Positions 26,964 through 52,663 of a stretch of 64,000 nucleotides of DNA are shown one piece after another. This DNA is from a virus (lineage: Duplodnaviria > Heunggongvirae > Uroviricota > Caudoviricetes): IMG/VR virus record IMGVR_UViG_3300026737_000001, one strand, 5' to 3'. The position numbers were made by a program, and so were the translations under genes. The notes below the pieces were generated by a model. The model saw nothing but the letters and a program-made list of their open reading frames with translations. It was not told where the DNA came from and did not search any database. Positions within the stretch are counted from its first letter, which is position 1; the number at the start of each line of letters is the position of its first letter.

Positions 26964-28085
26964 CTATCTTATACCTAAATCTAATTTGCCTTGTTTTAAA
27001 AGATTTTTACTAGCGTTTATATCCCTGTCGTGATTTGCACCACACTCACAAGTCCAAGTGCGAACTGATAAATCTTTGACTTTAGGATTTTTAGTACCAC
27101 ATTCTGAACAGGTTTGACTACTAGCAAAAAACCTATCTGCTTTGTGTAATATGCAATTATACCACTTGCTTTTGTATTCCAGCATTGTAGTAAACATATT
27201 CCAGGCACAATCAGAAATATGTTTTGCAAGTTTAGAATTTTTAAGCATACCTTTTACATTTAAGTCCTCTATGACTAAAAGTTGGTTCTCCTTTGTTAGA
27301 CTAGTTGACAGTTTATGCAAAAAGTCTTTACGAATATTTTTGATTTTTTCATGAACTTTAGCAATTTTCTTTTTAAGTTTATACCAATTGTTACTACCTT
27401 CTTCTTTACGAGCTAACCTTCTTTGTAATTTAGCAAGTTTATCTTGATATTTAGAAAGGTGCCTAGGATTTGAAATATGTTCACCATTAGAAGTAGTTAA
27501 AAAGTCTTTAATTCCTAAATCTAATCCTAATTCACATTGATTATCTTTAACAATAGTTACTAAGACTTGTTTAACATTAATTGATATATAATATTTACCT
27601 GCTCTAGATTTAGAAACTGTAACATTATTAATTTTACCTTTAACCTCTTTAGATTTAGCAAACTTAATCCAAGATAGTTTTGGTAGTTTAATCTTATTTT
27701 CTTTAATTTCAATATTTGTTGTACCACTAGGTCTAATGAATTTTTGTGTTCTATATGATAGCCTAGCTTTTCTTTTAGATTTAAACTTAGGATAATTATA
27801 TTTACCACTAAAGAAATTCTTAAAAGCTCTATCCAGGTCTTTAAGACTTTGCTGTAAAGCTATACTATCTACTTCTTTAAGCCACTCATATTCTTTTTTT
27901 AATTGAGGCAGTTGTCTGGAATATTTAGTATATGATTGATAATTTTCTTCTTTAGTTTTTGCTAAAAATTCGTTGTAAATGAATCTAGAACAACCAATAG
28001 TTTTATCAATTAATTCTTGTTGTTCTTGATTAGGATAAATTCTAAACTTATATGCTTTGTTAATTGGCTTAAATTTTTTAATCAT
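26964..28085 (-). CDS. tnpB: TnpB (IS605 OrfB-family RNA-guided nuclease/transposase accessory protein)
   Basis: N-terminal HTH 'YKFRIYPNQEQQELIDKTIGCSRFIYN', RuvC-like core, and C-terminal zinc finger 'CSECGTKNPKVKDLSVRTWTCECGANHDRDINASKN'. Confidence 0.85.
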   Translation of the reverse strand: MIKKFKPINKAYKFRIYPNQEQQELIDKTIGCSRFIYNEFLAKTKEENYQSYTKYSRQLPQLKKEYEWLKEVDSIALQQSLKDLDRAFKNFFSGKYNYPKFKSKRKARLSYRTQKFIRPSGTTNIEIKENKIKLPKLSWIKFAKSKEVKGKINNVTVSKSRAGKYYISINVKQVLVTIVKDNQCELGLDLGIKDFLTTSNGEHISNPRHLSKYQDKLAKLQRRLARKEEGSNNWYKLKKKIAKVHEKIKNIRKDFLHKLSTSLTKENQLLVIEDLNVKGMLKNSKLAKHISDCAWNMFTTMLEYKSKWYNCILHKADRFFASSQTCSECGTKNPKVKDLSVRTWTCECGANHDRDINASKNLLKQGKLDLGIR

Positions 28086-28474: not shown

Positions 28475-30154
28475 TTACTTTTTTTCCTGTGAACTCATTA
28501 CTGATTGTATCCATCTCCTCGTAGAAGCATTTTTTACAAAATCAACAAATAAAGGGTGTGGCCTCAAAGGTCTTGACTTAAACTCCGGATGAAACTGCAC
28601 ACCAACAAACCATCTGTGTTCTTTAAGCTCCATTGTTTCAACAAGCTTTCCGTCCGGTGATAGACCTGAGAATACAACCCCGTTAGCTTCAAATAACTTT
28701 CTGTAATCATTGTTAAACTCAAAGCGGTGACGATGCCTTTCTTTTAATTCTAAATGGTCGATGTAGGCGCTGTGAACTCTTGACTTTAAAGGCTTTGCTG
28801 TAAAATCATAAGAGCCAAGCCTCATTGTTCCGCCCTTGTTAACAACCTCTCTCTGCTCATTCATGAGGGTTATTACAGGGTTTTTAGTTTCACTGTCAAA
28901 CTCTAAGCTGTTGGCATCTTCTAGTCCTAACTCATTTCTGGCAAATTCAATAGCTGCAACCTGCATGCCAAGACAAATACCAAAGTAAGGGACCTTATTT
29001 TCTCTTGCATATTTAGCCGCCTTTATCTTGCCTTCAATGCCTCTCTCACCAAATCCACCAGGGACTAATATTCCATCATATCCTTTTAATGTTATTCTAA
29101 CTGCTTCATCACAGCTTAAATCTTCAAGCTCTTGAGAGTCAATAAATGTAATATCAACATCGAGATGATTTTTAAGACCTGCATGTATTAAAGCCTCTTT
29201 GATGCTGAGATATGCATCTTCGAGCTGTGTATATTTTCCCACAACTGCTATATTTACCTTTTCTTTTTTTTCTTGTAAATTTACAAGCATATGCCCCCAG
29301 TCATCTATATCTTGAGGATAACTCTGAAATGATTTAAAACCAAGTTTCTCCATTACCTTTTTAGCCATATCCTGACCTTCATATTTGAGAGGTATTTCAT
29401 AAATGTGCTCTACATCAACTGACTCAAATATTAATTCCTTGTCTATATCTCCAAATAAAGAAATCTTATCCCTTATTTCTTCAGGCATTTTATCTTTAAT
29501 TCTGCCGACTACAGCATCAGGCTGAACGCCAAGACTTCTAAGCTCCTTTAAGCTCTGCTGGGTAGGTTTTGATTTGTACTCTCCTACTTTATGCATGTAA
29601 GGAATTAATGTGCAGTGAACATGGAATGTGTTATCAAAACCTAAATCATGTCTTAACTGCCTTACAGCCTCCACAAAAGGGAAGCTTTCAATATCTCCTA
29701 CAGTGCCCCCGAGTTCAATTAGTATCACATCAGTCTTATCGTCTTCCGGCATGGTCATCCTGCGCTTTATCTCATCAGTGATATGAGGTATTACCTGTAT
29801 TGTCTTACCTAAGTATTTGCCTTTTCTTTCGTTATCTAAAACTTCCTGATAGATTTGACCTGTTGAGACAGAATTAATTCCAGAAAGCTCTATATCAATA
29901 AACCTTTCATAGTGGCCAAGGTCTAAATCAGTTTCTGCTCCATCATTGGTAACAAAAACCTCTCCGTGTTCTATAGGGTTCATTGTCCCAGCATCAACAT
30001 TTATATAGGGGTCAAATTTCTGAACCTTAATATTTAACCCTCTAGCTTTAAGTAACATTCCAAGCGATGCAGAAGTTAACCCCTTTCCTAATCCAGAGAC
30101 AACCCCTCCTGTCACGAATATATATTTAGTTTTCTTACTCACACTCATCAACAC
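28475..30154 (-). CDS. pyrG: CTP synthase
   Basis: Full-length 559 aa. 'KYIFVTGGVVSGLGKG' at the N-terminus, glutaminase-domain 'GICLGMQ' and 'GGTMRLG'. Confidence 0.9.
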   Translation of the reverse strand: MLMSVSKKTKYIFVTGGVVSGLGKGLTSASLGMLLKARGLNIKVQKFDPYINVDAGTMNPIEHGEVFVTNDGAETDLDLGHYERFIDIELSGINSVSTGQIYQEVLDNERKGKYLGKTIQVIPHITDEIKRRMTMPEDDKTDVILIELGGTVGDIESFPFVEAVRQLRHDLGFDNTFHVHCTLIPYMHKVGEYKSKPTQQSLKELRSLGVQPDAVVGRIKDKMPEEIRDKISLFGDIDKELIFESVDVEHIYEIPLKYEGQDMAKKVMEKLGFKSFQSYPQDIDDWGHMLVNLQEKKEKVNIAVVGKYTQLEDAYLSIKEALIHAGLKNHLDVDITFIDSQELEDLSCDEAVRITLKGYDGILVPGGFGERGIEGKIKAAKYARENKVPYFGICLGMQVAAIEFARNELGLEDANSLEFDSETKNPVITLMNEQREVVNKGGTMRLGSYDFTAKPLKSRVHSAYIDHLELKERHRHRFEFNNDYRKLFEANGVVFSGLSPDGKLVETMELKEHRWFVGVQFHPEFKSRPLRPHPLFVDFVKNASTRRWIQSVMSSQEKK

Positions 30155-38092: not shown

Positions 38093-38107
38093 TTTACCAC
38101 CCTCTTT

Positions 38108-39182
38108 CTAATTAGCTTTCTTAAAGAAATCTCCTTCAATCAATTTAACTTTATCAACCAGCATTGCATTACTTTTATCTTTTTTACCTTCAAGTTTTAA
38201 TTTAAAACCTTTTTGAAATAAGTCATGATTGGAGCGATATGTGTCCGGAAAAACTACAAGTTTAATCTTATTTTTATCTGTTTTAACTTTTGCAAAAGCC
38301 ATTAATTTATTTGACTTTCTGGTTTTAACCTCTTTAGATTCTGTAATTATGCCTTCCACCTCTAAGACCTCTCCGCTTTTAGCAAAATCCCATTCAGAAG
38401 GATAGGTTAAAGATAAACCGATTGTGTCCATTTCGAATTCAATAATTTCTTCTTTTGTGGGTTCTGGTTCGTCAAAAACTCCAGAACCTTCCTCATTTTT
38501 GAAGGCATCAAATAGTGACTGCCTCATCTGTCCAAACTCTTTAATAGTCTTGTAATCTACAAGTAATTGTTTTCTGTTTTTGCCGAATGAATCCATTGCC
38601 CCAGCTTTAATTAAAGATTCAAAAGCTGTCTTATTAACAACTCTTGTATCAACCTTCTGGTACATATCATCTAGGTCTTTAAACGGTCTTTGATTCATTA
38701 TTTCGGTGCTTGCTTTTTTACCTAAACCATCAATCGCATTTAAACCCAGTCTTATCTTCCCGTTAACAGCTGTAAAGCGCCCTTCTGACTCGTTAATGTC
38801 AGGAGGTAGTATATCTATCTTCTTTTTATAGCAGTCCGAGAAATAGTCCGTAATCGAGCTGTCAGAGCCACTCTTTGCTGCTTCAACACTCATGATAGCT
38901 GCATAGAACTCTGCCGGAAAATGGTATTTAAGGTAAGCAGTGGCATAAGATATTAATGCATAGCAAGCAGAATGTGATTTATTAAAGCCATAGCCGGCAA
39001 AATATTCGATTAATCTAAACATTTCATCAGCAAATTCTTCTGTGTGGCCATTTTCTTTAGCTCCTGCTTTAAACTTAACTTTCATTTTTTCTAATACTTT
39101 TATTTTCTTTTTTCCCATTCCACGCCTTAATATATCTGCCTCTCCCAGGCTGAAGTTAGCAATTATCTGTGCAGTTTTCATT
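38108..39182 (-). CDS. dnaE: DNA polymerase III alpha subunit DnaE, exon 3 (C-terminal part)
   Basis: '(V)MKTAQIIANFSLGEADILRRGMGKKK' corresponds to DnaE 'YQEQVMQIAQ...LGEADLLRRAMGKKK'. The codon is completed by splicing (see intron). Confidence 0.85.
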
Positions 39183-40758
39183 CAATTATGTTATCGCAAA
39201 AGCTTTTTATCTTCTGCTTCTATATCTGCTATCTTTACAAATATAGTTCGGCATACATTTTCACCTTATTTAAGGTGTCGAACACTCGTGGAGAGATTAT
39301 ATTTTACATATAAATGTAAGTTCACTCTCTATGCTCTACGGTATTAACAGATTTTTAGGTCTATTAATTACCTCGGTATTATCACATATAATATCCATTC
39401 TTTTTCTTTTTCTTGGTAGCCAAATATTAGCATCTTTGTACATGTATTTATATAGCTTTTTAGAAAATGATATACCACTTTGAAAGTAATATAGATTAGT
39501 ACTTTTATGGATTGTTTTATTGCTTTTTATTACCTTTTGTATAGATTTAAGCATTTTTTTATTTCCACAAAACCCACTTCTCTTACTTTTTTTGATGCAA
39601 GTTATGCCATCTCCATCAAAAAACCCTCTAATAAAGTGTCTATACATATTATCAGGTATTTGAAAGGGAAATGATTCTTTTCCCGTCTTATTAGGTATAA
39701 CACCATATTCAAATAATTTTTCAGTCATATGTCTTGATGTTAAGCTACATCTGCAACAGTAACCTTTTTTTGAATATCCAGAATTTTTACCAACATAAGG
39801 ATTAAGAGAACTTTCTAAGTGGCTTAAAAACCCATAAATAATCTCTTTGTCCTTTAAGGCTACACCTAATTTTATAGAATATTGACCATTATAGATAGAA
39901 GTGTTTCCATCAGCCATTAAAAAACCCAAAAAATAAGCTTTTTCTTCTTTGTTTATTTTATCAAAAAAATCTTCTTTTTTTATGCTATTCTCTAATCCTC
40001 TTTTTATATCAAAACCTTCTTTCTTTAACCATAATGAAATAGTGTTTCTATTAATACCTGTTTCAGTTGCTATTTCACATAAATATAATCCTGATTTATA
40101 AAGATTAACAACTCTTTTTTTATAAACATCTTTATATCCTATTTTATCCCCATGATTAAATTTTGAATTTTTTGTTAGTCCAGCATTTCTTAAATATTTA
40201 TACACTGTACCAACACTTATATTCAATAATTTTGATATTTCTTTTCCAAACTTACCTTCATTATAAAGGTCCATTATTTTTTTGATTTTATATTCACTTA
40301 TTTTTTCAGTTTTTTTAGATTTTTGTGGATTTTGTAAACTTATATCAGATTCATTAATCCATTTATAAATTGTACTTCTGCAAGGCATAATTTCCATTTT
40401 AGAAATATCAGTAACAGAAATGCCATCGCCATACATGTTTAATGCTTTTATTTTGCGTTGACTACTTTTCATCTTTATCACCTTCTACATATTGAAAGAG
40501 TATATACCTAACCATTTCAGAAAAATTAATTCCTTTTTTGTCAGCTATTTTTTGAATGTCTTCTTCCAGCTGTTCCGGTAAATAAATATTTCTTCTTTTC
40601 ATTTTTATCATCTCCAACGTGTGGTATTTGTATCACCTTGCATACATTATTATAACACACATTGAATCATTTTTCAAATTATGGATATTTAGATAGTGGC
40701 TTCACCGATTTTGCTCGATAATAATCTAGCTTATTTCTAAGCTGGACGGCAATTTCTT
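39183..40758 (-). other. group I-like intron in dnaE (intron 2), 1576 nt, carrying a LAGLIDADG HEG
   Basis: Exon 2 ends '...CAGGU' (U before the 5' splice site). The intron ends '...AATTG' (terminal G). Joining gives CAG GTA ATG = Q-V-M, restoring the conserved DnaE YQEQVM. A stop codon follows the exon 2 junction in frame. Confidence 0.7.
39336..40481 (-). CDS. LAGLIDADG homing endonuclease (double-motif) with N-terminal HTH modules, intron-encoded
   Basis: 'YFLGFLMADGNTS' and 'FIRGFFDGDGITC'. Confidence 0.8.
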   Translation of the reverse strand: MIKMKSSQRKIKALNMYGDGISVTDISKMEIMPCRSTIYKWINESDISLQNPQKSKKTEKISEYKIKKIMDLYNEGKFGKEISKLLNISVGTVYKYLRNAGLTKNSKFNHGDKIGYKDVYKKRVVNLYKSGLYLCEIATETGINRNTISLWLKKEGFDIKRGLENSIKKEDFFDKINKEEKAYFLGFLMADGNTSIYNGQYSIKLGVALKDKEIIYGFLSHLESSLNPYVGKNSGYSKKGYCCRCSLTSRHMTEKLFEYGVIPNKTGKESFPFQIPDNMYRHFIRGFFDGDGITCIKKSKRSGFCGNKKMLKSIQKVIKSNKTIHKSTNLYYFQSGISFSKKLYKYMYKDANIWLPRKRKRMDIICDNTEVINRPKNLLIP

Positions 40759-42710
40759 ACCTGTTCCTGGTATACTAGGTAACCGTATGTTTCCTCTAAT
40801 TCCTTTTTTAAACTTTCGTGTGGATATTCTACTTTTTCATTACCGTGCATTCTGTCGAAATATTTTTCCACAATACCAGCTTCAAGTGGTCCCGGGCGAC
40901 CGAGAGCAAGTATAGCAATTATATGCTCGAACTTTGTAGGTTTCATTTTCTTTAACAGCCTTTTAAATAGTTGTGATTCTACCTGAAAAACCCCGTTGGT
41001 ATCAGCCTTCTGATAGATGTTTTTATATACATCTTTATCATCAAGAGGTAAATCCCAAATGTTTTGTACTGTAGGCTTATACTCTAAGCTATCATAATCT
41101 TTTCTGTTCTTGATAAACTTAATAGCCTCACCTATGATAACAACAGTCTTTAACCCTAAGAAATCCATCTTGAGCAAACCTAAATCTTCGCTATCGTGCA
41201 TCTCTGTCTGAGTTACATATGTTATCTCACCAGTCTGGCTGTTTTTGGTTCGTGCTAAAGGTGTGTAATCATCAACAGGCTCTGGAGTAATAACAACTGC
41301 TGAGGCATGTGTACCTAACTGTCTAGGCTTACCTTCTAGCTTTTGAGCTATATCGAATAGTTTTGGATACTGTTCAGCATACATCTTAAGTTCTTTACTT
41401 TCTTCCAGTGCTTCCTTGATTGAAATACCTGGGGTATCGGGAAATGCCTTTGATATCTCTTTATTCATTAGATTGTAATCATATCCTAATACTCGGCCTA
41501 CATCTTTAACAGCTGATTTAGCACCTAGTGTACCAAAGTTACAGATACTTGCTACATTTTCTTCTCCGTATTTGTCGATTACATACTGGATAACTTTTCC
41601 TCTATTTCCAAAATCTATATCAATATCAGGCATAGCAGTTCTTTCAGGATTTAAGAATCTTTCAAACAGCAGTCCATACTTAACAGGGTCTAAGGCTGTG
41701 ATGCCTAAAAGATAGGATAGAAGTGAGCCTGCTGCAGACCCTCGACCAGGACCAACAATGATGTTATTATCTTTAGCCCACTGAACATAATCTTCAACAA
41801 TTAAAAAGTAGGCAGGATACCCCTTCATATTTATAACCTCAAGCTCTGTATCAAGCCGTCTGGCGTATTTATCCATATCAATGTCTTTTTCTACAGCCAA
41901 CTCAAAAAGCTTCTTAAAGGCCCTTTCTTCAAGGTATGACTCAAGTGTATAACCTTCAGGAACTTCGAACTTAGGAAGGAGTAAATTACCTAAATCAAGC
42001 TCGACTGTATCACATTTATCGGCAATTTTTACTGTATTCTCAACTGCACTATCTCTGGCATCTATAAAATCAGACTCTACACTTTTTGCAAAAAGCTGAC
42101 TTTTTATCTCATCTTCACCCTTAAAATAGTATGAATCTCCATGAAATCTAAATCTGTCATTATCTTCAACTTTTGCCCCTGTTTGAATACATAGCATAAC
42201 GTCATGAGCTTCTATACTGTCCTTTTCTAGATAGTGCATATCTGATGTAGCTACAAGCTCTATATCTAATTTTCTAGCTAAATTTGCAAGCTTTGAGTTC
42301 ATTACGTACTGCTCTGATACATCGTTGGCCATAATCTCTATATAGAAATCATCACCAAAAAGTTTTTTATATTTTAGAGCTATTTCTTCTGCTCTTTCAT
42401 TGTTGTTATTCTCTAAGGCTCTTGGTATCTCTCCTGCAAGGCAGGCAGAACTTACTATAAGTCCTTCAGAATGCTCTTTTAAAATTTCAAAATCTATTCT
42501 TGGTTTATAATAAAAACCTTCTGTATTTGACTTACTCACCATCTTAAAAATATTATCCAATCCTTTTTTATTTTTAGCAAGGATTATAAGGTGGTGTCTT
42601 TTACCTTCTTTATCATGCATGTCATTAGCTACATATACTTCAATTCCAAATATATGTTTAATTTCTTCTTCTTTGGCTGCTTTATAAAGCTCTACGAAAT
42701 TATGGATACT
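40759..42710 (-). CDS. dnaE: DNA polymerase III alpha subunit DnaE, exon 2 (PHP remainder plus polymerase core)
   Basis: 'GPGRGSAAGSLLSYLLGIT', 'FLGLKT', ends 'GYLVYQEQV'. Confidence 0.85.
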
Positions 42711-43840
42711 CAATTGTGTTATCCTACAAGTTTTTTACCATGTAGTTCTTGCAGTTCATTTCCTGCAAGTTCAGCATACCTTTTGCCCACCAGCATTACC
42801 TGTGAGGACAGGAGTCTCTTGGAAAAATTATATTCTTTAATACAAATTAAAGTTTCATTTTCTATGCGTTGCCCCTGACTAATATTTTAAAATTAGCCTT
42901 CGGTTCGGATTGGCTTCTCAGCTTTCCCGCTTAATACTCCTGTAATAATTCTAAACATTCCTGTTTAGAACGGCAAATTTATCATGTTTTCTCTTTAAAT
43001 ATATATTAGCATCTTTATATAGGTAGTCTTTAATTTTCAAAACAGCAAGCCTTCCTGACTTTCTTATTTTGTACATATCAGATTTATGAAATTTTGGTTT
43101 TTGCATAAATATATCATTTTTTTCAAACTCATCAGATATTTCATTTAGCATATCTTTATAGCCCATTATATAAAATTCACAATTTAAAGAGTTCTTGTGA
43201 TGGTTATCATTTCTTATTGAATATGATATACATCCATCACCGTCAAAGTAACCTCTTATAAAATGATTCATATATTCTTCTTTTATATTTGGTAATGAGT
43301 TTGTGTTTTTTACACCTAGTTTTATTAAGTCTTGATATATTTTTTTATTGGTAAAAGACAGAGTATATTGTCCAATATTACTATATCTATCCTTTCTTGG
43401 TTTAATGTAATATAATGGACCTGCATAACCAACTTCATTTTTTACATCTAAAAGAAGTTTTTTATCATCTTCTTTTAAACCAATAGAGGCCACATAACTT
43501 CTTCCTGAAATATATACGCTTCCATCTGAATAAAATAATCCTAATATATAGGCTTTCTCTTTAGAATTTATTTCAGAAAAATATTTTTGATTTATTTTAT
43601 ATTGTGGTTGACCTCCTGGATTTCTTGATTTTATATTATACTCTTTGAAAGTCGTTTGTATTTTTGAAGCACTTACATTAAAATATTTTCCTATATCTTT
43701 ATGACTTAAACCATCATTATAAAGATTTTTCATTTCATTAATTTGTTTTGTAGAAAAAATAATTTTTTTAGTAATTTTTATCACCCTCTTTAGCTTAAAG
43801 GTGCTAATATATTTATAATTATAACATGATATTAATGTTT
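42711..43840 (-). other. group I-like intron in dnaE (intron 1), 1130 nt, carrying a LAGLIDADG HEG
   Basis: Exon 1 ends '...GAC CAC GGU' and the intron ends '...CACAATTG'. Joining gives 'TDHG|SIHNFVELYKAAK', collinear without gaps with Firmicute DnaE 'TDHGNMFGAIEFYKAAK'. Confidence 0.65.
42951..43784 (-). CDS. LAGLIDADG homing endonuclease, intron-encoded (paralog of 39336..40481)
   Basis: 'YILGLFYSDGSVY' and 'FIRGYFDGDGCIS'. The N-terminal HTH resembles the other HEG. Confidence 0.8.
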   Translation of the reverse strand: MIKITKKIIFSTKQINEMKNLYNDGLSHKDIGKYFNVSASKIQTTFKEYNIKSRNPGGQPQYKINQKYFSEINSKEKAYILGLFYSDGSVYISGRSYVASIGLKEDDKKLLLDVKNEVGYAGPLYYIKPRKDRYSNIGQYTLSFTNKKIYQDLIKLGVKNTNSLPNIKEEYMNHFIRGYFDGDGCISYSIRNDNHHKNSLNCEFYIMGYKDMLNEISDEFEKNDIFMQKPKFHKSDMYKIRKSGRLAVLKIKDYLYKDANIYLKRKHDKFAVLNRNV

Positions 43841-43966
43841 ACCGTGGTCTGTTATAGCAACAGTTTTTTGACCCATATCTTTTGCTTTCTTCACAATATC
43901 CTTTGGTGAATCAAAGCCGTCCAAAAAAGAGTAGTAACTGTGGTTGTGTAAATTAACATAAGACAA
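43841..43966 (-). CDS. dnaE: DNA polymerase III alpha subunit DnaE, exon 1 (PHP N-terminus)
   Basis: Not in the ORF track. TTG start after AAGGAGG. '(M)SYVNLHNHSYYSFLDGFDSPKDIVKKAKDMGQKTVAITDHG' is the PHP-domain signature. Confidence 0.7.
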
Positions 43967-44131
43967 ATAACTTCCTCCTTTCGTTTCGTTAAGTTTATTA
44001 TATCATACTTCACTTGATTATTAAAGAAAAAGGCGCACCATTAAAGCAACGCCTTCTTTTATTATATAACTATACCTGCTAACAACCCAGCTATTAATAA
44101 AGCATTAAATAGTCTTAACATTATTCTTCAC

Positions 44132-46199: not shown

Positions 46200-47387
46200 T
46201 TATTTTTTATATTTTTCTTTTATTAAAAATGAGACCTGTATCCCGATTCCTATTAATGCTGCAAGTCCTACACCGCTAAATTTATAAACTGTTATTCCAC
46301 TTAGTCCAAAAACTATCATCGTAGAAGCTATAAATGTATTCTTTGGACTTGTGAAATCGACTTTATTTGAAACAAAAGTTTTAAAGCCTAGAGTTGCTAT
46401 ATTACCAAAAAGAATAATCATAACTCCTCCAACAACAGCTGTTGGTATTGACTGCAGAAAAGCTGCTAATACACCTACAAAGCTAAATATAATTGCAAAT
46501 ATACCTGCATTTCTTGTAACTTTTGGGTCTCTTATCTTTAATAGACTAACTGCTGATGTTCCTTCTGAGTAAGTTGTATTTGGTACAGAGCCTACAAAAG
46601 AAAGCATTGTGCCTATTCCATCAATTAACATCGTCCTGTGCATCCCTGGTGACTTATAATACTTATTACCAGTTGCTTCACTTACTGCAAATACATCACC
46701 AAAATGCTCTATTGTTGGAGCTAAGGCAAATGGCAGTATGTAAATTGCTGCGCTTAAATTAAATCTTGGGAGTGTAAATTCAGGCATGCTTACTAGTGGT
46801 AGAGAAACAAATGTTACCTCTCCTAGAAGCAAAGCTGATATATATCCTGTTAAAATAGCTATCAAAACTGAATATAATCTTGTTACTCCTTCTGTAAACA
46901 TCATAAAATATCCTGCTGTAGATAATGTTATAATAGCTAAAAGCCAATTACCTGAAGCCATATCTATACCGGTATCTATCAGGGTCAACCCTATCAGCAT
47001 AATCATTGTTCCTGAGATTACTGGAGGGAAAAGTTTTTCTGAGATGAAGTCACTGCCTGTTTTTTTAATTACAAATGAAAATAAAACTTTCATAATTCCC
47101 GCAACACCTAATGCAAAGAAAACAGATGGCATATCCCATCTATCCTGTATATAAATTATTGGTGCTATATAGGCAAATGATGAGCCTAGAAAAATTATTG
47201 GTGCTCCATATTCACCTCTACCAAAATAATGCATGATAAGAGTCGATATACCTGCTGTAAATAAAACAATAGATGTTGAGATACCCGTCAAAAGTGGTAC
47301 CAAAATCGTAGCGCCAAAGCAGACTACAAGCATCTGTAAACCTAAAAGCCATGTGTTATTTCCAATATTGAAATTCTCTGATTTCAT
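46200..47387 (-). CDS. NCS2-family nucleobase (uracil/xanthine) permease
   Basis: N-terminus 'LQMLVVCFGATILVPLLTG...LFTAGISTLIMH...IFLGSSFAYIAPII' parallels UraA/PyrP. Twelve or more TM segments. Confidence 0.6.
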   Translation of the reverse strand: MKSENFNIGNNTWLLGLQMLVVCFGATILVPLLTGISTSIVLFTAGISTLIMHYFGRGEYGAPIIFLGSSFAYIAPIIYIQDRWDMPSVFFALGVAGIMKVLFSFVIKKTGSDFISEKLFPPVISGTMIMLIGLTLIDTGIDMASGNWLLAIITLSTAGYFMMFTEGVTRLYSVLIAILTGYISALLLGEVTFVSLPLVSMPEFTLPRFNLSAAIYILPFALAPTIEHFGDVFAVSEATGNKYYKSPGMHRTMLIDGIGTMLSFVGSVPNTTYSEGTSAVSLLKIRDPKVTRNAGIFAIIFSFVGVLAAFLQSIPTAVVGGVMIILFGNIATLGFKTFVSNKVDFTSPKNTFIASTMIVFGLSGITVYKFSGVGLAALIGIGIQVSFLIKEKYKK

Positions 47388-49621: not shown

Positions 49622-52600
49622 CTAACCCTCATATCCGTTTTCAGCATCACACTTAGGACAGAATTCGTGTTCTCCTGGCAGATACCCATGTATTGGACAA
49701 ATACTAAAAGTAGGAGTAATAGAGTAATAAGGAAGTTCATAATTTTCAGCAACTCTTTTAACAAACTTTTTGGTAGCCTCTATTCCAGGCATTCTCTCTC
49801 CTAGAAATAAATGTAAAACTGTTCCTCCTGTATAATTTTTCTGAAGTTCATCCTGCCAATCTAAAGCTTCAAAAGGGTCGTCTGTAGCCCCTACAGGTAG
49901 CTGAGTTGAATTAGTGTAATACGGGTCAGCATCTTCTGTATAAACCCTTTTATCATTAGCAAAAACAGCTTCTTCTTTCCCAAACTTATCAAGGTCTGAT
50001 TTGGCCAATCTATAGCTTGTTCCTTCAGCTGGAGTAGCTTCAAGGTTAAAAAGGTCACTTGTTTCTTCCTGGTACTCCACCATTCTTTCTTTCATTTTGT
50101 ACATAACCCATTTAGTAAATTTAATAGCTTCATGTTCTGTCATATCTTTTCCTAAGAAATTCATAACAGATTCATTCATTCCATTTAATCCGATTGTATT
50201 AAAGTGATTTTTCCAGTACTCTCCAAAACGTTCCTTAATACTTCTTAGATAAAACTTAGAATAAGGGTAAAGACCTGCATCTGTTAACTCTTCTAAAATT
50301 CTTCTTTTAATTTCTAAACTTTCTTTTGCAATATCCATTAATTCATAGACTCTCTCTAAATAATCATCAGTATTTTCTGCTAAAAGTCCAATTCTGGGCA
50401 TATTAAGTGTTACTACACCGATAGAGCCTGTCATAGGCGATGAGCCGAATAAACCTCCTCCTCGCTTTCTTAATTGCCGATTATCAAGGCGCAGCCTGCA
50501 GTTATGAGTCAAGATTCCAGTTGTGCCAACCGTAAACATTGGTTCTCCATCTTTGACTTCAAAACAATAAGCCGTTTGTTTTTCTTTTAGTTTTTCAACT
50601 TTATCTATTTTCATCCACAGTTTTGAGTCTTTTTTAAACCAAACGTCGCCATAACTATTTCTATTTAATTTGTAAAATAAAACAGCATAATTTGGATTAT
50701 CTCCTAGTCTTCCATCACTTTTTTTTCTGTCATCAGTATAAACATTGGTTGTTGTTCCCAGAGTAGCAGCTAACATATTTAAGCTTTCTACCATTTTTTC
50801 TGATGATGTATAAATTCTATTTTTGTTTCCTCCATCAGTTTCATAATAGCCATCAAATAATCCTGTTCTAAAGTGTTTGCTCATTTCAAAAACATTTGCT
50901 TTGAAGTATTTATTTAATGCATTATCCCCATCAACAAAACTTTCAATCATTGATTTTACTGCTGGATTATATGTTGAAAGTTTAACTACATTATTTTTTT
51001 CTTCTTTTTCGGTAAATTTAGCCCCAAAAAGTTTAGTCAGTATTTCTTTTAAATTTTCAAGCACTGTTAGCTTGGTATTATTATTTAAAGAAAAAACAGT
51101 TCCTGTATTTTTATCACAGCTTCCGTCTCCTGCAAAAGCTCCTATTAAATAGCCAAGGTCATAAGTTCCTCCTTCGCCTTTAAAACTTGTTAAGCTATAA
51201 GGTAGATAATAACCTTCTTTTAAGTCTTTTCCTGACATTTCTTCAATATCTTTATTTTTATTTTTGATAACAAAATTTAAATGTTCTTCAGTCATCTTTA
51301 TCTCATGCCCGTTAACCAATCTTACATTTATCATATTTTGATTTTCAAACTTATTGAATCGACCTTCTATAAATTTACCATCAGAATAGACTAATATATC
51401 ATCATTATCTTTAGTGTCATAATATGTGTGGTTAATTTGGGAGTATCTTACATTGTCATCACCTGTTTTAACTAATACCTTTTCTTTTCCGTCAAGTGGA
51501 CACATTGAGCGAGCGTCTTCAGCTTTCATATCGGAATTGACGAAGTTCGCAAAATATGGAATTCCGTACTTGGCTGTCATTTCCCAAACAGGATTTAATA
51601 TTTCGTTATCCCAATCAAAATCTGGAGTAATGTTATAAGTAGGAATAGGGAAAGAAAATACTCTTCCTTTTGAATCTCCCGCCAGCATAACCTCAGCAAA
51701 AGCCTTGTTAATCATGTCCATTTCCTTCTGGAAATTTTTAAGCGGCATGTCATAAAGCATTTCGCCACCAATAATAGCTGGGTCCTCTGCCATATTTGAT
51801 GGACAAACTAAATCCATAGTTAAATTTGTAAAAGGACTTTGAAATCCAACCCGTGTCGGTACATTTAAATTAAAAATAAATTCCTGCATAGCCTGATAAA
51901 CTTCATCATAATCAAGTCCATCATAAGATACAAACGGTGCAAGATAAGTATCGAAACTTGAAAAAGCTTGAGCTCCAGAACTCTCTCCCTGTAAAGTATA
52001 TAAAAAATTAACCATTTGTCCTAAAGCAGTTCTGAAGTGTTTTGGTGGTGCCGACTCTATCTTGGTTGACACTCCTGAAAAACCTTCCAATAATAAATCC
52101 TGAAGGTCCCATCCACAACAGTAATTACTTAAATTAGCAAGGTCGTGAATGTGCAAATCTCCACTTACATGCTTTTCTTTAATGTGTTTAGGGTAAATTT
52201 CATTTAACCAATAATGGCCTGTCACCTCGCTTGCTATATGATTATTTAAACCCTGAAGACTATAACCCATATTGGAGTTCTCATTAACTTTCCAATTGCT
52301 TAAATCAAGGTAATTATTAACTGTATCATTTATTCCATTGTATAGTTTTTGAGCATCTCTATACTTTTCATGCTGCTTTCTATATAATATATAGTTTTTT
52401 GCTATTTCATAATGTCTGTTTTCCATTAATTCATACTCAACAATATCCTGTAAAGTCTCAACATTAACAGAGTTTAATCCAGAACTAATCATTCCACTTA
52501 TATTATCTTCTATTTCTTCAACAATATTATTTGCAACAAAATTCCAAAAATCTTCACCTTTTTTTTCTGCTGTTGCCTTCGCTGCTTTATAAACTGCATC

Positions 52601-52663
52601 TTTAATTTTTTTATTTTTATATTCTACTTTTCTTCCGTCTCTTTTAATTACATAAAACGACAT
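49622..52663 (-). CDS. nrdD: anaerobic ribonucleoside-triphosphate reductase NrdD (class III), intein-containing
   Basis: N-terminal ATP-cone, C-terminal zinc ribbon and glycyl region '...CPIHGYL...CPKCD'. 1013 aa, of which 334 aa are intein. Confidence 0.8.
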   Translation of the reverse strand: MSFYVIKRDGRKVEYKNKKIKDAVYKAAKATAEKKGEDFWNFVANNIVEEIEDNISGMISSGLNSVNVETLQDIVEYELMENRHYEIAKNYILYRKQHEKYRDAQKLYNGINDTVNNYLDLSNWKVNENSNMGYSLQGLNNHIASEVTGHYWLNEIYPKHIKEKHVSGDLHIHDLANLSNYCCGWDLQDLLLEGFSGVSTKIESAPPKHFRTALGQMVNFLYTLQGESSGAQAFSSFDTYLAPFVSYDGLDYDEVYQAMQEFIFNLNVPTRVGFQSPFTNLTMDLVCPSNMAEDPAIIGGEMLYDMPLKNFQKEMDMINKAFAEVMLAGDSKGRVFSFPIPTYNITPDFDWDNEILNPVWEMTAKYGIPYFANFVNSDMKAEDARSMCPLDGKEKVLVKTGDDNVRYSQINHTYYDTKDNDDILVYSDGKFIEGRFNKFENQNMINVRLVNGHEIKMTEEHLNFVIKNKNKDIEEMSGKDLKEGYYLPYSLTSFKGEGGTYDLGYLIGAFAGDGSCDKNTGTVFSLNNNTKLTVLENLKEILTKLFGAKFTEKEEKNNVVKLSTYNPAVKSMIESFVDGDNALNKYFKANVFEMSKHFRTGLFDGYYETDGGNKNRIYTSSEKMVESLNMLAATLGTTTNVYTDDRKKSDGRLGDNPNYAVLFYKLNRNSYGDVWFKKDSKLWMKIDKVEKLKEKQTAYCFEVKDGEPMFTVGTTGILTHNCRLRLDNRQLRKRGGGLFGSSPMTGSIGVVTLNMPRIGLLAENTDDYLERVYELMDIAKESLEIKRRILEELTDAGLYPYSKFYLRSIKERFGEYWKNHFNTIGLNGMNESVMNFLGKDMTEHEAIKFTKWVMYKMKERMVEYQEETSDLFNLEATPAEGTSYRLAKSDLDKFGKEEAVFANDKRVYTEDADPYYTNSTQLPVGATDDPFEALDWQDELQKNYTGGTVLHLFLGERMPGIEATKKFVKRVAENYELPYYSITPTFSICPIHGYLPGEHEFCPKCDAENGYEG
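50501..51502 (-). mobile_element. intein with LAGLIDADG homing-endonuclease domain inside NrdD (aa 388-721)
   Basis: Starts with Cys in 'ARSM|CPLDGKEKVLV' and ends 'GILTHN|C'. LAGLIDADG motifs 'YLIGAFAGDGS' and 'FRTGLFDGYYETDGG'. Extein junction 'ARSM-CRLRLD'. Confidence 0.7.

What the first reader, a model, noticed from the sequence alone, without database searches (positions are those of the whole stretch)
38108..43966. dnaE interrupted by two group I-like introns, each carrying a LAGLIDADG homing endonuclease; splice junctions predicted to the nucleotide
Three DnaE-coding segments are separated by 1130-nt and 1576-nt insertions. Each insertion starts after an exon-terminal U and ends in G, contains in-frame stops, and holds a free-standing double-motif LAGLIDADG ORF. 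Proposed joins are 43841|42710, giving '...AITDHG|SIHNFVELYKAAK', and 40759|39182, giving '...GYLVYQEQV|MKTAQIIANFSLGEADILRR'. Both restore uninterrupted collinearity with canonical DnaE (PHP motif, then YQEQVM), and the second join rebuilds a split Val codon (GU + A). The first exon and its TTG start at 43966 are absent from the ORF track. The spliced product is 1050 aa.
Basis: partly seen in the sequence, partly recalled or inferred. Interest (0 to 1): 0.75.

Follow-up and report, generated by a model that had tools for sequence, protein, structure and literature searches.

The report
Two homing group I introns in phage dnaE
A phage DNA polymerase III alpha gene is split into three pieces by two related self-splicing-type (group I) introns, each carrying its own homing endonuclease gene; this is a well-known kind of selfish element, here from an intron family that the standard Rfam model does not detect.

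Summary
On the minus strand, dnaE runs as exon 43966-43841, a 1130-nt insertion, exon 42710-40759, a 1576-nt insertion, and exon 39182-38108. Joining the exons gives a stop-free 1050-aa DnaE. Pfam profile coordinates run straight across both joins. A 98%-identical relative (L023) lacks insertion 2 exactly at the predicted join.

The group I interpretation is supported, although Rfam RF00028 finds nothing. The two insertions are homologous RNAs. They belong to a family with at least 64 IMG/VR contigs, 96 phage records and 20 Bacillota genomes. Covariation supports P2, P4-P6, P7.1, P8, P9 and P9.1, and the P3/P7 pseudoknot. P7 has the bulge-plus-G-C layout. Each intron has a U.G pair at its 5' splice site and ends in G. 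A covariance model built from the family also finds RF00028-positive introns and all three Twort introns.

Both endonucleases are double-motif LAGLIDADG proteins with HTH N-termini (phrog_4645). They sit in different loops (L1 and L5).

Splicing and cleavage remain untested. This is a new member of a known kind and of moderate interest.

The parts
43997..44024 (-). promoter-like site upstream of dnaE (TTAATA-16-TATAAT with a TG extension)
   Evidence: 10 of 12 matches. This is a consensus match only.
43841..43966 (-). dnaE exon 1 (42 codons, TTG start 7 nt after AAGGAGG; PHP domain N-terminus, ends ...AITDHG)
   Evidence: PHP profile positions 2-39
42711..43840 (-). intron 1 (1130 nt), group I, with the endonuclease ORF in the P1 loop (L1)
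   Evidence: family HMM hit 42978-42711, E 6e-45; CM hit 42944-42862, E 5e-15
43838..43845 (-). intron 1, P1 5' strand: exon ACGGU followed by intron AAA (U.G pair at 43841)
   Evidence: sequence
43818..43826 (-). extended -10 element TGTTATAAT ahead of the intron 1 endonuclease gene (no good -35)
   Evidence: read directly from the sequence; the scan does not list it
42951..43784 (-). intron 1 homing endonuclease gene. It encodes an HTH domain plus a double-motif LAGLIDADG domain (277 aa from the GTG start). Its last codons encode the IGS and P2.
   Evidence: LAGLIDADG_3 E 1e-10, LAGLIDADG_1; phrog_4645 E 1e-45; the identical protein occurs on JGI contigs
42970..42977 (-). intron 1 internal guide sequence, the P1 3' strand (UUUGCCGU)
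42952..42967 (-). intron 1 P2 hairpin (UAAACA-GGAA-UGUUUA)
   Evidence: helix 1; all 6 pairs show compensatory changes
42711..42942 (-). intron 1 catalytic core. P3 is 42942-42937 paired with 42814-42809. P7 is 42867-42863 paired with 42778-42774. The core also contains P4-P6, P7.1, P7.2, P8, P9, P9.1 and the tail GAUAACACAAUUG, with the terminal G at 42711.
40759..42710 (-). dnaE exon 2 (rest of PHP, the polymerase core and most of the finger domain; ends ...YQEQ plus GU)
39183..40758 (-). intron 2 (1576 nt), group I, with a promoter-RHH-endonuclease cassette in the P5 loop
   Evidence: (HMM hits 40754-40698 and 39386-39183, E 3e-37)
40748..40761 (-). intron 2 P1 hairpin: exon GGU, then AA-GAAA-UU-GCC (U.G pair at 40759)
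   Evidence: It covaries with the exon in L114 and L115.
40649..40677 (-). internal promoter TTGAAA-17-TATAAT with a TG extension, the best match in the 6.2 kb scanned
   Evidence: 11 of 12 matches
40462..40611 (-). small ribbon-helix-helix (CopG-like) ORF, 49 aa. Its stop codon overlaps the endonuclease start.
   Evidence: RHH_5 E 4e-6, above the cut-off; called on independent contigs
39336..40472 (-). intron 2 homing endonuclease gene. It encodes three HTH repeats plus a double-motif LAGLIDADG domain (378 aa from the ATG). Its 3' end reads through P5', P4' and P6 and stops in J6/7.
   Evidence: (phrog_4645 E 1e-49)
39183..39410 (-). intron 2 3' core. It comprises P5', P4', P6/P6a, P7, P7.1, P7.2, P3', P8, P7', P9, P9.1 and the tail GAUAACAUAAUUG, with the terminal G at 39183.
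38108..39182 (-). dnaE exon 3 (A completes the Val codon, then MKTAQ...; end of the finger domain, HhH and OB domains)

Best explanation
The window is part of a large phage genome. Its replicative polymerase gene, dnaE, is interrupted by two paralogous mobile group I introns. They have the subgroup IA-like architecture with P7.1/P7.2 and are distant relatives of the Twort-type phage introns.

Inferred splicing mechanism. After transcription, each intron RNA folds into the P3-P9 core. The internal guide sequence pairs with the last exon bases so that the exon-terminal U forms a U.G wobble pair. For intron 1 this is ACGGU|AAA with UUUGCCGU, and for intron 2 it is GGU|AA with UUGCC. An exogenous guanosine bound at the G-C pair of P7 attacks the 5' splice site. 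The terminal G of the intron (42711 or 39183) then replaces it, and the exons are ligated. The product is one mRNA for a 1050-aa DnaE.

Inferred homing mechanism. Each intron also carries a free-standing HTH-LAGLIDADG endonuclease gene with its own transcription signals. The gene lies in loop L1 in intron 1 and in the P5 loop in intron 2, where a small RHH gene lies upstream of it. The enzyme is expected to cut intron-less dnaE alleles of co-infecting relatives at the insertion site. Repair from the intron-carrying copy then spreads the intron together with flanking exon sequence.

Shown here: the exact insertions, a natural empty site, the RNA family and its structure by covariation, and the protein families. 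Inferred: splicing activity, endonuclease activity and specificity, and the role of the RHH protein (probably a repressor of the cassette).
For: Exons and joins:
- The exons join into an uninterrupted DnaE, with Pfam coordinates continuous over both joins.
- L023 provides a natural empty site for intron 2. The uninterrupted dnaE of L111 is collinear across both joins.

RNA family:
- The two insertions align with each other outside their ORFs.
- A pattern taken from their shared 3' parts finds 64 viral contigs and 20 Bacillota genomes. A BLAST search with a family member (L040) finds 96 phage records.
- A family HMM built without the window rows hits both insertions at E 6e-45 and 3e-37. Both hits end exactly at the predicted 3' splice sites.

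RNA structure:
- RNAalifold independently predicts P2, P4, P5, P6/6a, P7, P7.1, P8, P9 and P9.1. Of 50 predicted pairs, 42 show compensatory changes.
- In the pair count, 90.8% of cells are paired against 63% in shuffles. The covariation score is 0.714 against 0.21 (0 of 500 shuffles reach it), and slid controls score 0.10-0.16.
- P3 crosses P7. It is at least 6 bp long in 31 of 31 sequences, against a mean of 3.6 bp in cross-sequence controls.
- P7 is GCAUA/UAUGC, preceded by a 1-nt bulge and a closing pair that covaries (A-U in 20 sequences, G-C in 11).
- P1 with a U.G pair forms in 13 of 13 cases with a visible 5' splice site.
- Intron 2-type introns sit at the same codon in three different dnaE genes. 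The exon and guide sequence covary: GGU/GCC, GCU/GGC and GAU/GUC.

Link to accepted group I introns:
- The family covariance model R1 detects an RF00028-positive intron at E 3e-6. It detects all three Twort introns at E 0.005-0.015, each at its P3-P7 segment. There is no other hit up to E=10 in 87 kb.
- Family members in AR9 gyrA lie in a CDS that its authors annotated as a 3-piece join.

Endonucleases and mobility:
- Both ORFs match Pfam LAGLIDADG models (the intron 2 ORF's LAGLIDADG_3 score is just below the cut-off) and phrog_4645. They are 28% identical to each other, and the catalytic Asp is present in all four motifs.
- Insertion 2 has a strong internal promoter.
- Identity to the intron-less allele falls to 55% over the last ~250 nt before the intron 2 site. 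It returns to 97% within ~40 nt after it. This is the pattern expected from co-conversion or from selection on the target site.
Against: - Rfam RF00028 gives no match to either insertion, even at E<=10 on the bare core. It gives none to any family member tested.
- The link to Twort is weak. CM E-values are 0.005-0.015 with rough calibration, and a sequence-only HMM is not significant.
- P7 departs from the usual GACUA/UAGUC, so guanosine binding is assumed rather than shown.
- P1 of intron 2 has only 3 exon pairs.
- In intron 1, about 860 nt separate the 5' splice site from its guide sequence.
- There are no RNA data, so splicing is inferred.
- Endonuclease activity and target are untested.
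- The start codon of the intron 1 ORF is uncertain (GTG with an abutting RBS, or ATG at 43733).
Confidence: 0.88

Rival explanations
1. The insertions are relics of group I introns, or endonuclease cassettes, that no longer splice. In that case dnaE is a pseudogene, or it is expressed as three separate polypeptides (42 + 650 + 357 aa) that assemble without covalent joining.
For: No RNA or protein data exist. RF00028 finds nothing. Exon 2 has an upstream TTG and exon 3 begins with ATG, so separate translation is formally possible. The large ORF inserts lie in L1 and L5, and the ORFs overlap core helices.
Against: Both insertions keep every invariant position of the family alignment and all helices. 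The guide sequences still match their exons. The same arrangement is conserved at 98-100% identity on independent contigs from several samples. Exon 1 would be a 44-aa fragment cut inside the PHP domain. The exons show no decay, with an open frame over all 1050 codons.
Confidence: 0.07
2. The gene is a 'fractured gene': free-standing homing endonuclease genes separate the pieces, and split inteins join the proteins in trans, or the insertions are inteins.
For: DnaE is a classic host of split inteins and inteins. A 65%-identical homologue (P0004) carries an intein. The NrdD gene of the same window carries an intein with a LAGLIDADG domain. Fractured genes that combine endonuclease genes with split inteins are described in PMC2677866 (found).
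Against: The exon ends abut directly in alignments with uninterrupted DnaE. There are no extra residues that could form intein halves. The reading frames close within 2-6 codons of each exon end. The endonucleases are not in frame with the exons. The non-coding parts are a conserved, covarying RNA.
Confidence: 0.01
3. The insertions are group II introns or another class of intervening element, such as an IStron or a transposon.
For: The standard group I model fails. Group II introns do occur in phages, sometimes with homing endonuclease genes (PMC12350094). A TnpB/IS605-type gene lies elsewhere in the window.
Against: No Rfam group II domain model matches. There is no reverse transcriptase or transposase ORF in either insertion. 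The boundaries are U| ... G| rather than GUGYG ... AY. The covariation-supported fold is the group I P3/P7 pseudoknot architecture. The family CM cross-detects accepted group I introns.
Confidence: 0.01

Closest known systems
Staphylococcus phage Twort orf142 and nrdE group I introns (subgroup IA2; ribozyme crystal structure; AF132670)
   Same: Several introns lie in one phage gene. The helix order is the same, including extra P7.1/P7.2 hairpins between the P7 5' strand and the P3 3' strand. The junction motifs are shared: CAAUCC before P4', and GCAAC-G entering P7. So is the 3' module, UGAAC - P9 hairpin - GAA - P9.1 hairpin - G(A)UAACAUAAUUG with a terminal G (searches compared). The family CM finds all three Twort introns in register.
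   Different: Twort has the canonical P7, GACUA/UAGUC, and scores 63-101 bits with RF00028. The family here has GCAUA/UAUGC and scores nothing. Sequence-only similarity is not significant. The host genes differ.
Bacillus phage AR9/PBS1 gyrA introns (CDS annotated as a three-piece join, KU878088 g044)
   Same: They are members of the same intron family by HMM (E 2e-24 for two copies) and about 70% identical to the intron 1 core. Two family introns lie in one DNA-metabolism gene of a large Bacillota phage.
   Different: The host gene and the 3' tail differ. The published description could not be read.
Intron 2-type introns at the same dnaE site in other uncultivated phages (L114, L115)
   Same: The insertion point is identical: after YQEQ, between codon positions 2 and 3. 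The ribozyme is homologous (E 8e-36 and 8e-31). The endonucleases are homologous (55% and 47% identity) and sit in the same loop. The guide sequence covaries with the exon.
   Different: Neither has the RHH ORF. Their endonuclease genes start directly after P5 with their own RBS.
Phage T4 td, nrdB and sunY introns, and SPO1/Bastille DNA polymerase introns (classical mobile phage group I introns)
   Same: They have the same biology. They are self-splicing introns in nucleotide-metabolism or replication genes. They carry free-standing endonuclease genes with their own expression signals in peripheral loops. They home with co-conversion of flanking exons (general knowledge; review PMC3984707).
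   Different: According to that review, phage intron endonucleases are mostly GIY-YIG, HNH, PD-(D/E)xK or EDxHD. Here both are LAGLIDADG proteins with HTH N-termini. The host gene is Pol III alpha (dnaE), not a family A or B polymerase.

Membership tests
Group I intron (ribozyme) | P1 helix between the 5' exon end and an internal guide sequence, with a U.G wobble pair at the splice site | tested here: met
   Intron 1 pairs ACGGU|AAA with UUUGCCGU, and intron 2 pairs GGU|AA with UUGCC. P1 forms in 13 of 13 family members with a visible 5' splice site. Exon and guide sequence covary as GGU/GCC, GCU/GGC and GAU/GUC at the same dnaE site.
Group I intron (ribozyme) | Conserved core of P3-P4-P5-P6 and P7-P3'-P8-P7', with P3 and P7 forming a pseudoknot | tested here: met
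   RNAalifold plus pair counts on 31 sequences: 90.8% of cells paired, 49 of 57 pairs with compensatory changes, 0 of 500 shuffles as high. P3 crosses P7 and is at least 6 bp long in all 31 sequences, against 3.6 bp in controls.
Group I intron (ribozyme) | Guanosine-binding site in P7: a G-C pair next to a bulged nucleotide | tested here: met
   The invariant G-C is preceded by a 1-nt bulge and a covarying closing pair (A-U in 20 sequences, G-C in 11). Only the layout is shown. The next pairs differ from the usual consensus (GCAUA rather than GACUA). Binding itself was not tested.
Group I intron (ribozyme) | Intron ends in G (omega G) immediately before the 3' exon | tested here: met
   G at 42711 and at 39183. 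The empty site in L023 and the collinear L111 fix the boundaries to within the 1-2 nt repeat ambiguity. The family HMM ends at these bases.
Group I intron (ribozyme) | Significant score against the curated covariance model Rfam RF00028 | tested here: not met
   There is no hit at the gathering threshold or at E<=10 for the window, and none for the family members tested (gathering threshold; E<=10 on one compact member). Twort control introns score 63-101 bits. RF00028 is documented to miss whole subtypes (PMC6125680).
Group I intron (ribozyme) | Homology to experimentally established group I introns | tested here: inconclusive
   The family CM hits an RF00028-positive intron at E 3e-6. It hits all three Twort introns at E 0.005-0.015, in register, with no false hits. 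The sequence-only HMM is not significant, and the CM calibration is rough.
Group I intron (ribozyme) | Guanosine-dependent self-splicing | not testable with these tools
   This needs in vitro transcription and splicing, or RNA-seq.
LAGLIDADG homing endonuclease (monomeric, double-motif) | Two LAGLIDADG motifs, each with the catalytic acidic residue | tested here: met
   ORF1 has ILGLFYSDG and IRGYFDGDG. ORF2 has FLGFLMADG and IRGFFDGDG. ORF1 scores above the Pfam LAGLIDADG_3 cut-off, and ORF2 scores 21.7 against a cut-off of 22.5. Both match phrog_4645 at E 1e-45 and 1e-49.
LAGLIDADG homing endonuclease (monomeric, double-motif) | Site-specific cleavage of the intron-less allele, and homing | not testable with these tools
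   The evidence is indirect only. The introns are sporadic: an empty site in L023 and none in L111. The same site is occupied in L114 and L115. A divergence tract is centred on the site.
Intein | In-frame insertion with N- and C-terminal splicing blocks | tested here: not met
   Stop codons occur 2-6 codons into each insertion. The ORFs are free-standing and have no Intein_splicing hit.
Group II intron | Six-domain RNA with domain V, GUGYG...AY ends, usually a reverse transcriptase ORF | tested here: not met
   No Rfam group II hits. No RT domain. The ends are A...G.

The most novel reading that the evidence does not exclude
The two introns may belong to a distinct, widespread lineage of phage group IA introns. 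Its defining change would be a double compensatory swap in the guanosine-binding helix P7 (GCAUA/UAUGC instead of the near-universal GACUA/UAGUC). Standard annotation with RF00028 systematically misses it, so many 'split' or 'hypothetical' phage genes would in fact be intron-interrupted. In addition, the RHH gene in front of the intron 2 endonuclease, behind a consensus promoter, could be a self-regulating cassette. Such a cassette would time homing or interference against co-infecting phages rather than being a passive passenger.
Probability: 0.3. Interest if true: 0.5.

Novelty: new member of a known kind. Interest (0 to 1): 0.35.

Why it matters
Annotation. A replicative polymerase that gene callers report as fragments (658 aa, 357 aa and an uncalled 42-aa exon on the JGI source contig) is restored to one 1050-aa protein, with junctions known to the nucleotide.

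Method. The one curated Rfam group I model misses an entire, common family of phage introns, seen here in at least 64 IMG/VR contigs, 96 phage records and 20 Bacillota genomes. The alignment and covariance model built here could recover them. This would correct split genes such as terminase, tape-measure, capsid, gyrA and dnaE in many phage genomes.

Biology. The locus pairs an intron-containing allele with a 98%-identical intron-less allele, and a divergence tract is centred on the insertion site. The same intron-endonuclease unit also sits at the same codon in three divergent dnaE genes. This is a clean system for studying homing, co-conversion and target-site evolution. The endonucleases are candidate new specificities.

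Limits. None of this changes current understanding of group I introns.

Tried and rejected
RNA searches:
- Rfam on the whole window, on the 5.2-kb region and on the bare 3' core of intron 1 gave only chance snoRNA-like matches.
- Rfam on other interrupted dnaE loci (Bacillus phage WH1, Rossellomorea phiT1, L023 and others) found nothing.
- Rfam at E<=10 on a compact ORF-less family member found nothing relevant.
- No tRNA genes were found.
- Sequence-only HMMs against Twort were not significant. The best result was E 0.018 against a shuffled background, and the 3'-tail HMM found nothing. The Twort relationship therefore rests on the CM and on shared architecture.

Similarity searches:
- Megablast of the whole locus against phage records gave only a 38-nt hit.
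- A viral-contig search for close relatives of endonuclease 1 found none.

Methods that did not work:
- An automatic search for 5' splice sites by P1 score plus an open reading frame was too noisy. It was replaced by hand curation of 13 cases.
- MAFFT put P3 one or two columns out of register in a quarter of the rows. The official pair count for P3 (73.7% paired) is therefore an underestimate, and a register-free test was used instead.
- The AR9 genome paper could not be read.

Interpretations rejected: intein, split-intein 'fractured gene', group II intron and IStron or transposon (see the rival explanations).

Full report
**1. What is in the sequence**

All features are on the minus strand.

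- Three DnaE-coding segments lie at 43966-43841, 42710-40759 and 39182-38108. Insertions of 1130 nt (43840-42711) and 1576 nt (40758-39183) separate them.
- Concatenated, the three segments give 3153 nt, which is 1050 codons plus the stop, with no internal stop.
- Read onward, exon 1 stops after GKH and exon 2 after RNCRPA.
- Pfam profile coordinates pass straight across both joins. PHP runs 2-39 in exon 1 and 40-163 in exon 2. DNA_pol3_finger runs 4-121 in exon 2 and 122-166 in exon 3.
- The TTG at 43966 lies 7 nt after AAGGAGG. A promoter-like site lies at 44024-43997.
- The 44-aa exon 1 ORF falls below the usual ORF cut-off. It is also not called on the JGI source contig, 3300009744 Ga0114985_100001.

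**2. Independent check of the joins**

- The spliced protein finds uninterrupted homologues of 1027-1055 aa at 56-67% identity.
- It also finds P0001, which is 97% identical and 1009 aa long. Its contig, L023, matches the window at 98.3% through exon 1, intron 1 and exon 2. L023 lacks intron 2 altogether, so its exons 2 and 3 form one ORF.
- At the join, L023 reads TAT CAG GAG CAA GTT ATG GCT. The spliced window reads TAC CAG GAA CAG GT|A ATG AAA. There is no indel.
- L111 is a syntenic dnaE-recJ locus at 67% protein identity. It has neither intron and is collinear across both joins.
- Repeated A residues allow the boundaries to slide by 1 nt (intron 1) or 2 nt (intron 2).

**3. The insertions are related structured RNAs**

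- Outside their ORFs, the two insertions align with each other. The last ~160 nt match, both ending GAUAACAYAAUUG. The segment after the ORF of intron 1 matches the first ~60 nt of intron 2.
- A pattern taken from the shared 3' part found 64 IMG/VR contigs and 20 Bacillota genomes. A BLAST search with family member L040 found 96 phage records, from Staphylococcus, Clostridium, Bacillus, Streptococcus and other phages.
- Many members are compact and ORF-less, at 230-300 nt.
- An HMM built from 29 of these, without the window rows, hits the window at 42978-42711 (E 6e-45) and 39386-39183 (E 3e-37). Both hits end exactly at the predicted 3' splice sites.

**4. The fold is group I**

I aligned the 29 members with the two window introns, with their ORF loops cut out.

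- RNAalifold independently predicted hairpin P2, P4, P5, P6/P6a, a long-range helix P7, P7.1, P8, P9 and P9.1. Of 50 predicted pairs, 42 show compensatory changes.
- Counting pairs for this structure plus P3 gave 90.8% of cells paired, against 63.3% in shuffles. The covariation score was 0.714 against 0.210, and 0 of 500 shuffles reached it. Slid controls scored 0.10-0.16.
- P3 crosses P7, which is the group I pseudoknot. MAFFT misregistered P3 in some rows, so I used a register-free test. All 31 sequences form a P3 helix of at least 6 bp (mean 7.1). Cross-sequence pairings average 3.6 bp.
- P7 is invariant (GCAUA/UAUGC). It is preceded by a one-nucleotide bulge and a closing pair that covaries perfectly, A-U in 20 sequences and G-C in 11. 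This is the bulge-plus-G-C layout of the guanosine-binding site.
- Hairpins P7.1 and P7.2 lie between the P7 5' strand and the P3 3' strand. The Twort and L060 introns carry an insertion at the same place in their Rfam alignments.
- P1 with a U.G wobble pair at the splice site forms in all 13 members whose 5' exon is visible. Intron 1 pairs ACGGU|AAA with UUUGCCGU across the ORF. Intron 2 forms GGU|AA-GAAA-UUGCC.
- Read directly from the sequence, three pairs of P10 are possible in both introns: 3' exon AGU or AAU with AUU of the guide.

**5. Why Rfam fails, and the link to accepted group I introns**

- RF00028 gives nothing for the window, even at E<=10 on the bare core. It gives nothing for 20 family loci or for a compact member at E<=10.
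- The same model scores the three Twort orf142 introns at 63-101 bits. It also scores two other introns that flank the family member in L060 and L081. The tool therefore works, and it is the family that escapes the model.
- Nawrocki et al. made the same point. In their search, RF00028 found no significant hit while subtype models found 95 (PMC6125680).
- Against the RF00028 consensus (GACUA ... UAGUC), the family has positions 2 and 3 of P7 changed on both strands.
- I built a covariance model of the P3-to-P7 module from the family and searched 87 kb. It found intron 1 (E 5e-15), the 3' half of intron 2 (E 1e-8) and the family members in L060 and L081.
- It also found the RF00028-positive intron in L060/L081 (E 3e-6, with P4, P5 and P6 in register) and all three Twort introns (E 0.005-0.015), each at its P3-P7 segment. 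Nothing else appeared up to E=10.
- Twort also shares the motifs CAAUCC and GCAAC-G and the 3' module UGAAC-P9-GAA-P9.1-GUAACAUAAUUG.
- Two family members (E 2e-24) lie in AR9 gyrA, whose CDS the authors annotated as a three-piece join.

**6. The ORFs**

Both introns encode proteins of one phage family, phrog_4645 (E 1e-45 and 1e-49). The two are 28% identical to each other. Each has two LAGLIDADG motifs with the catalytic Asp, and HTH repeats at the N-terminus: one in ORF1 and three in ORF2. They occupy different loops.

*Intron 1*
- The ORF (43784-42951) lies in the P1 loop.
- Its last codons, ...FAVLNRNV*, are encoded by the guide sequence and P2.
- Family members L035 and L027 show the same arrangement.
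- An extended -10 element, TGTTATAAT, lies at 43826-43818.

*Intron 2*
- The insert is closed by P5a (AUAUCC/GGAUAU).
- It contains the best sigma-70-type promoter of the region, at 40677-40649: TTGAAA-17-TATAAT with a TG extension.
- Next comes a 49-aa ribbon-helix-helix ORF at 40611-40462 (RHH_5, E 4e-6). Its stop codon overlaps the start of the endonuclease gene (40472-39336).
- The endonuclease gene reads through P5', P4' and P6 and stops in J6/7.

**7. Evidence of mobility**

- The introns are sporadic. The window, L116-L118 and other contigs carry both. L023 carries only intron 1, and L111 carries neither.
- Identity between the window and L023 is near 100% over most of exon 2. It then falls to 0.85, 0.83, 0.73 and 0.55 in the four 60-nt windows before the intron 2 site, and returns to 0.97 within ~40 nt after it. 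This fits exon co-conversion during homing, or divergence of the target site in the intron-less allele.
- Two other, divergent dnaE genes (L114, L115) carry a homologous intron (E 8e-36 and 8e-31). Each has a homologous endonuclease (55% and 47% identity) at exactly the same position, after YQEQ between codon positions 2 and 3.
- In those genes the last exon bases and the guide sequence covary: GGU/GCC, GCU/GGC and GAU/GUC. This is independent support both for P1 and for site-specific spread.

**8. Rivals**

- Inteins or split-intein 'fractured genes' are excluded. Stop codons close the frames, the ORFs are free-standing, and there are no extra residues at the exon ends.
- Group II introns or transposons are excluded. 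There is no RT or transposase, no Rfam group II match, the ends are A...G, and the fold is group I.
- The only serious rival is loss of splicing activity. It cannot be excluded without RNA data. Three observations argue against it: the invariant core positions are intact, the guide sequences match their exons, and the arrangement is conserved on independent contigs.

**9. Verdict**

- These are two mobile group I introns in a phage dnaE gene, each carrying a LAGLIDADG homing endonuclease gene. They are new members of a well-known kind.
- Points of some interest: the family is invisible to RF00028 because of a variant P7 and variant junctions; a natural empty-site allele exists with a divergence tract; the same intron-endonuclease unit recurs at one dnaE codon in three lineages; and an RHH gene sits in the intron 2 cassette.
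- Splicing, cleavage specificity and the role of the RHH protein are inferred, not shown.

Noticed in passing
window 49622-52663 (minus strand): The anaerobic ribonucleotide reductase NrdD ORF (1013 aa) is interrupted in frame by an intein with a LAGLIDADG domain. Pfam gives Intein_splicing at aa 437-721 and LAGLIDADG_3 at aa 602-648, and the NRDD profile is split in two. This is a third mobile element in the replication and nucleotide-metabolism module.
   Followed up: partly
window 40462-40677 (minus strand): Inside intron 2, a near-consensus promoter is followed by a 49-aa ribbon-helix-helix gene whose stop codon overlaps the endonuclease start. The homologous introns at the same dnaE site in L114 and L115 lack this gene. 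It occurs only in the window lineage (L116-L118).
   Followed up: partly
L114 1620-2995; L115 2873-4182: Two other, divergent dnaE genes carry a homologous intron and endonuclease at exactly the same codon position (after YQEQ). The guide sequence changes to match each exon: GAU/GUC and GCU/GGC, against GGU/GCC in the window.
   Followed up: yes
L023 3390-3640 compared with window 40900-40759 and 39182-39080: The intron 2-less allele is otherwise 98-100% identical. It is strongly diverged for ~250 nt before and ~40 nt after the empty site. The encoded peptide is HPDLEEDLKETYGFMAYQEQVMAAARRLAG, against HESLKKELEETYGYLVYQEQVMKTAQIIAN in the window.
   Followed up: yes
L060 516-1640 and L081 1534-2658: One phage gene carries three consecutive introns within ~1.1 kb. 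Two are RF00028-positive, and a member of the RF00028-negative family lies between them. L076, L089 and AR9 gyrA (L088) each carry two family introns close together.
   Followed up: partly
window 26964-28085 (minus strand): A TnpB/IS605 OrfB-type ORF (OrfB_IS605, Cas12f1-like TNB and HTH_OrfB_IS605 domains) lies in the same phage-like region.
   Followed up: no
window 28475-30154 and 46200-47387 (minus strand): A full-length CTP synthase and a xanthine/uracil permease family protein are encoded among the replication genes. This is unusual cargo for a phage.
   Followed up: no
L023 4608-4906 compared with window 38093-38107: The close relative has an extra 93-aa ORF between dnaE and recJ. It is absent from the window, where the two genes are 15 nt apart.
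   Followed up: no
L118 4489-4566 (= window ~42796-42719); window 43841-43966: On the JGI source contig, the gene calls include a spurious 25-aa ORF inside the ribozyme core of intron 1 and omit dnaE exon 1. dnaE appears there as 658-aa and 357-aa fragments.
   Followed up: yes
P0004 (homologue): A 65%-identical DnaE homologue carries an in-frame intein inserted after GYGFNK. The same gene family is therefore invaded by both inteins and group I introns, at different conserved motifs.
   Followed up: no
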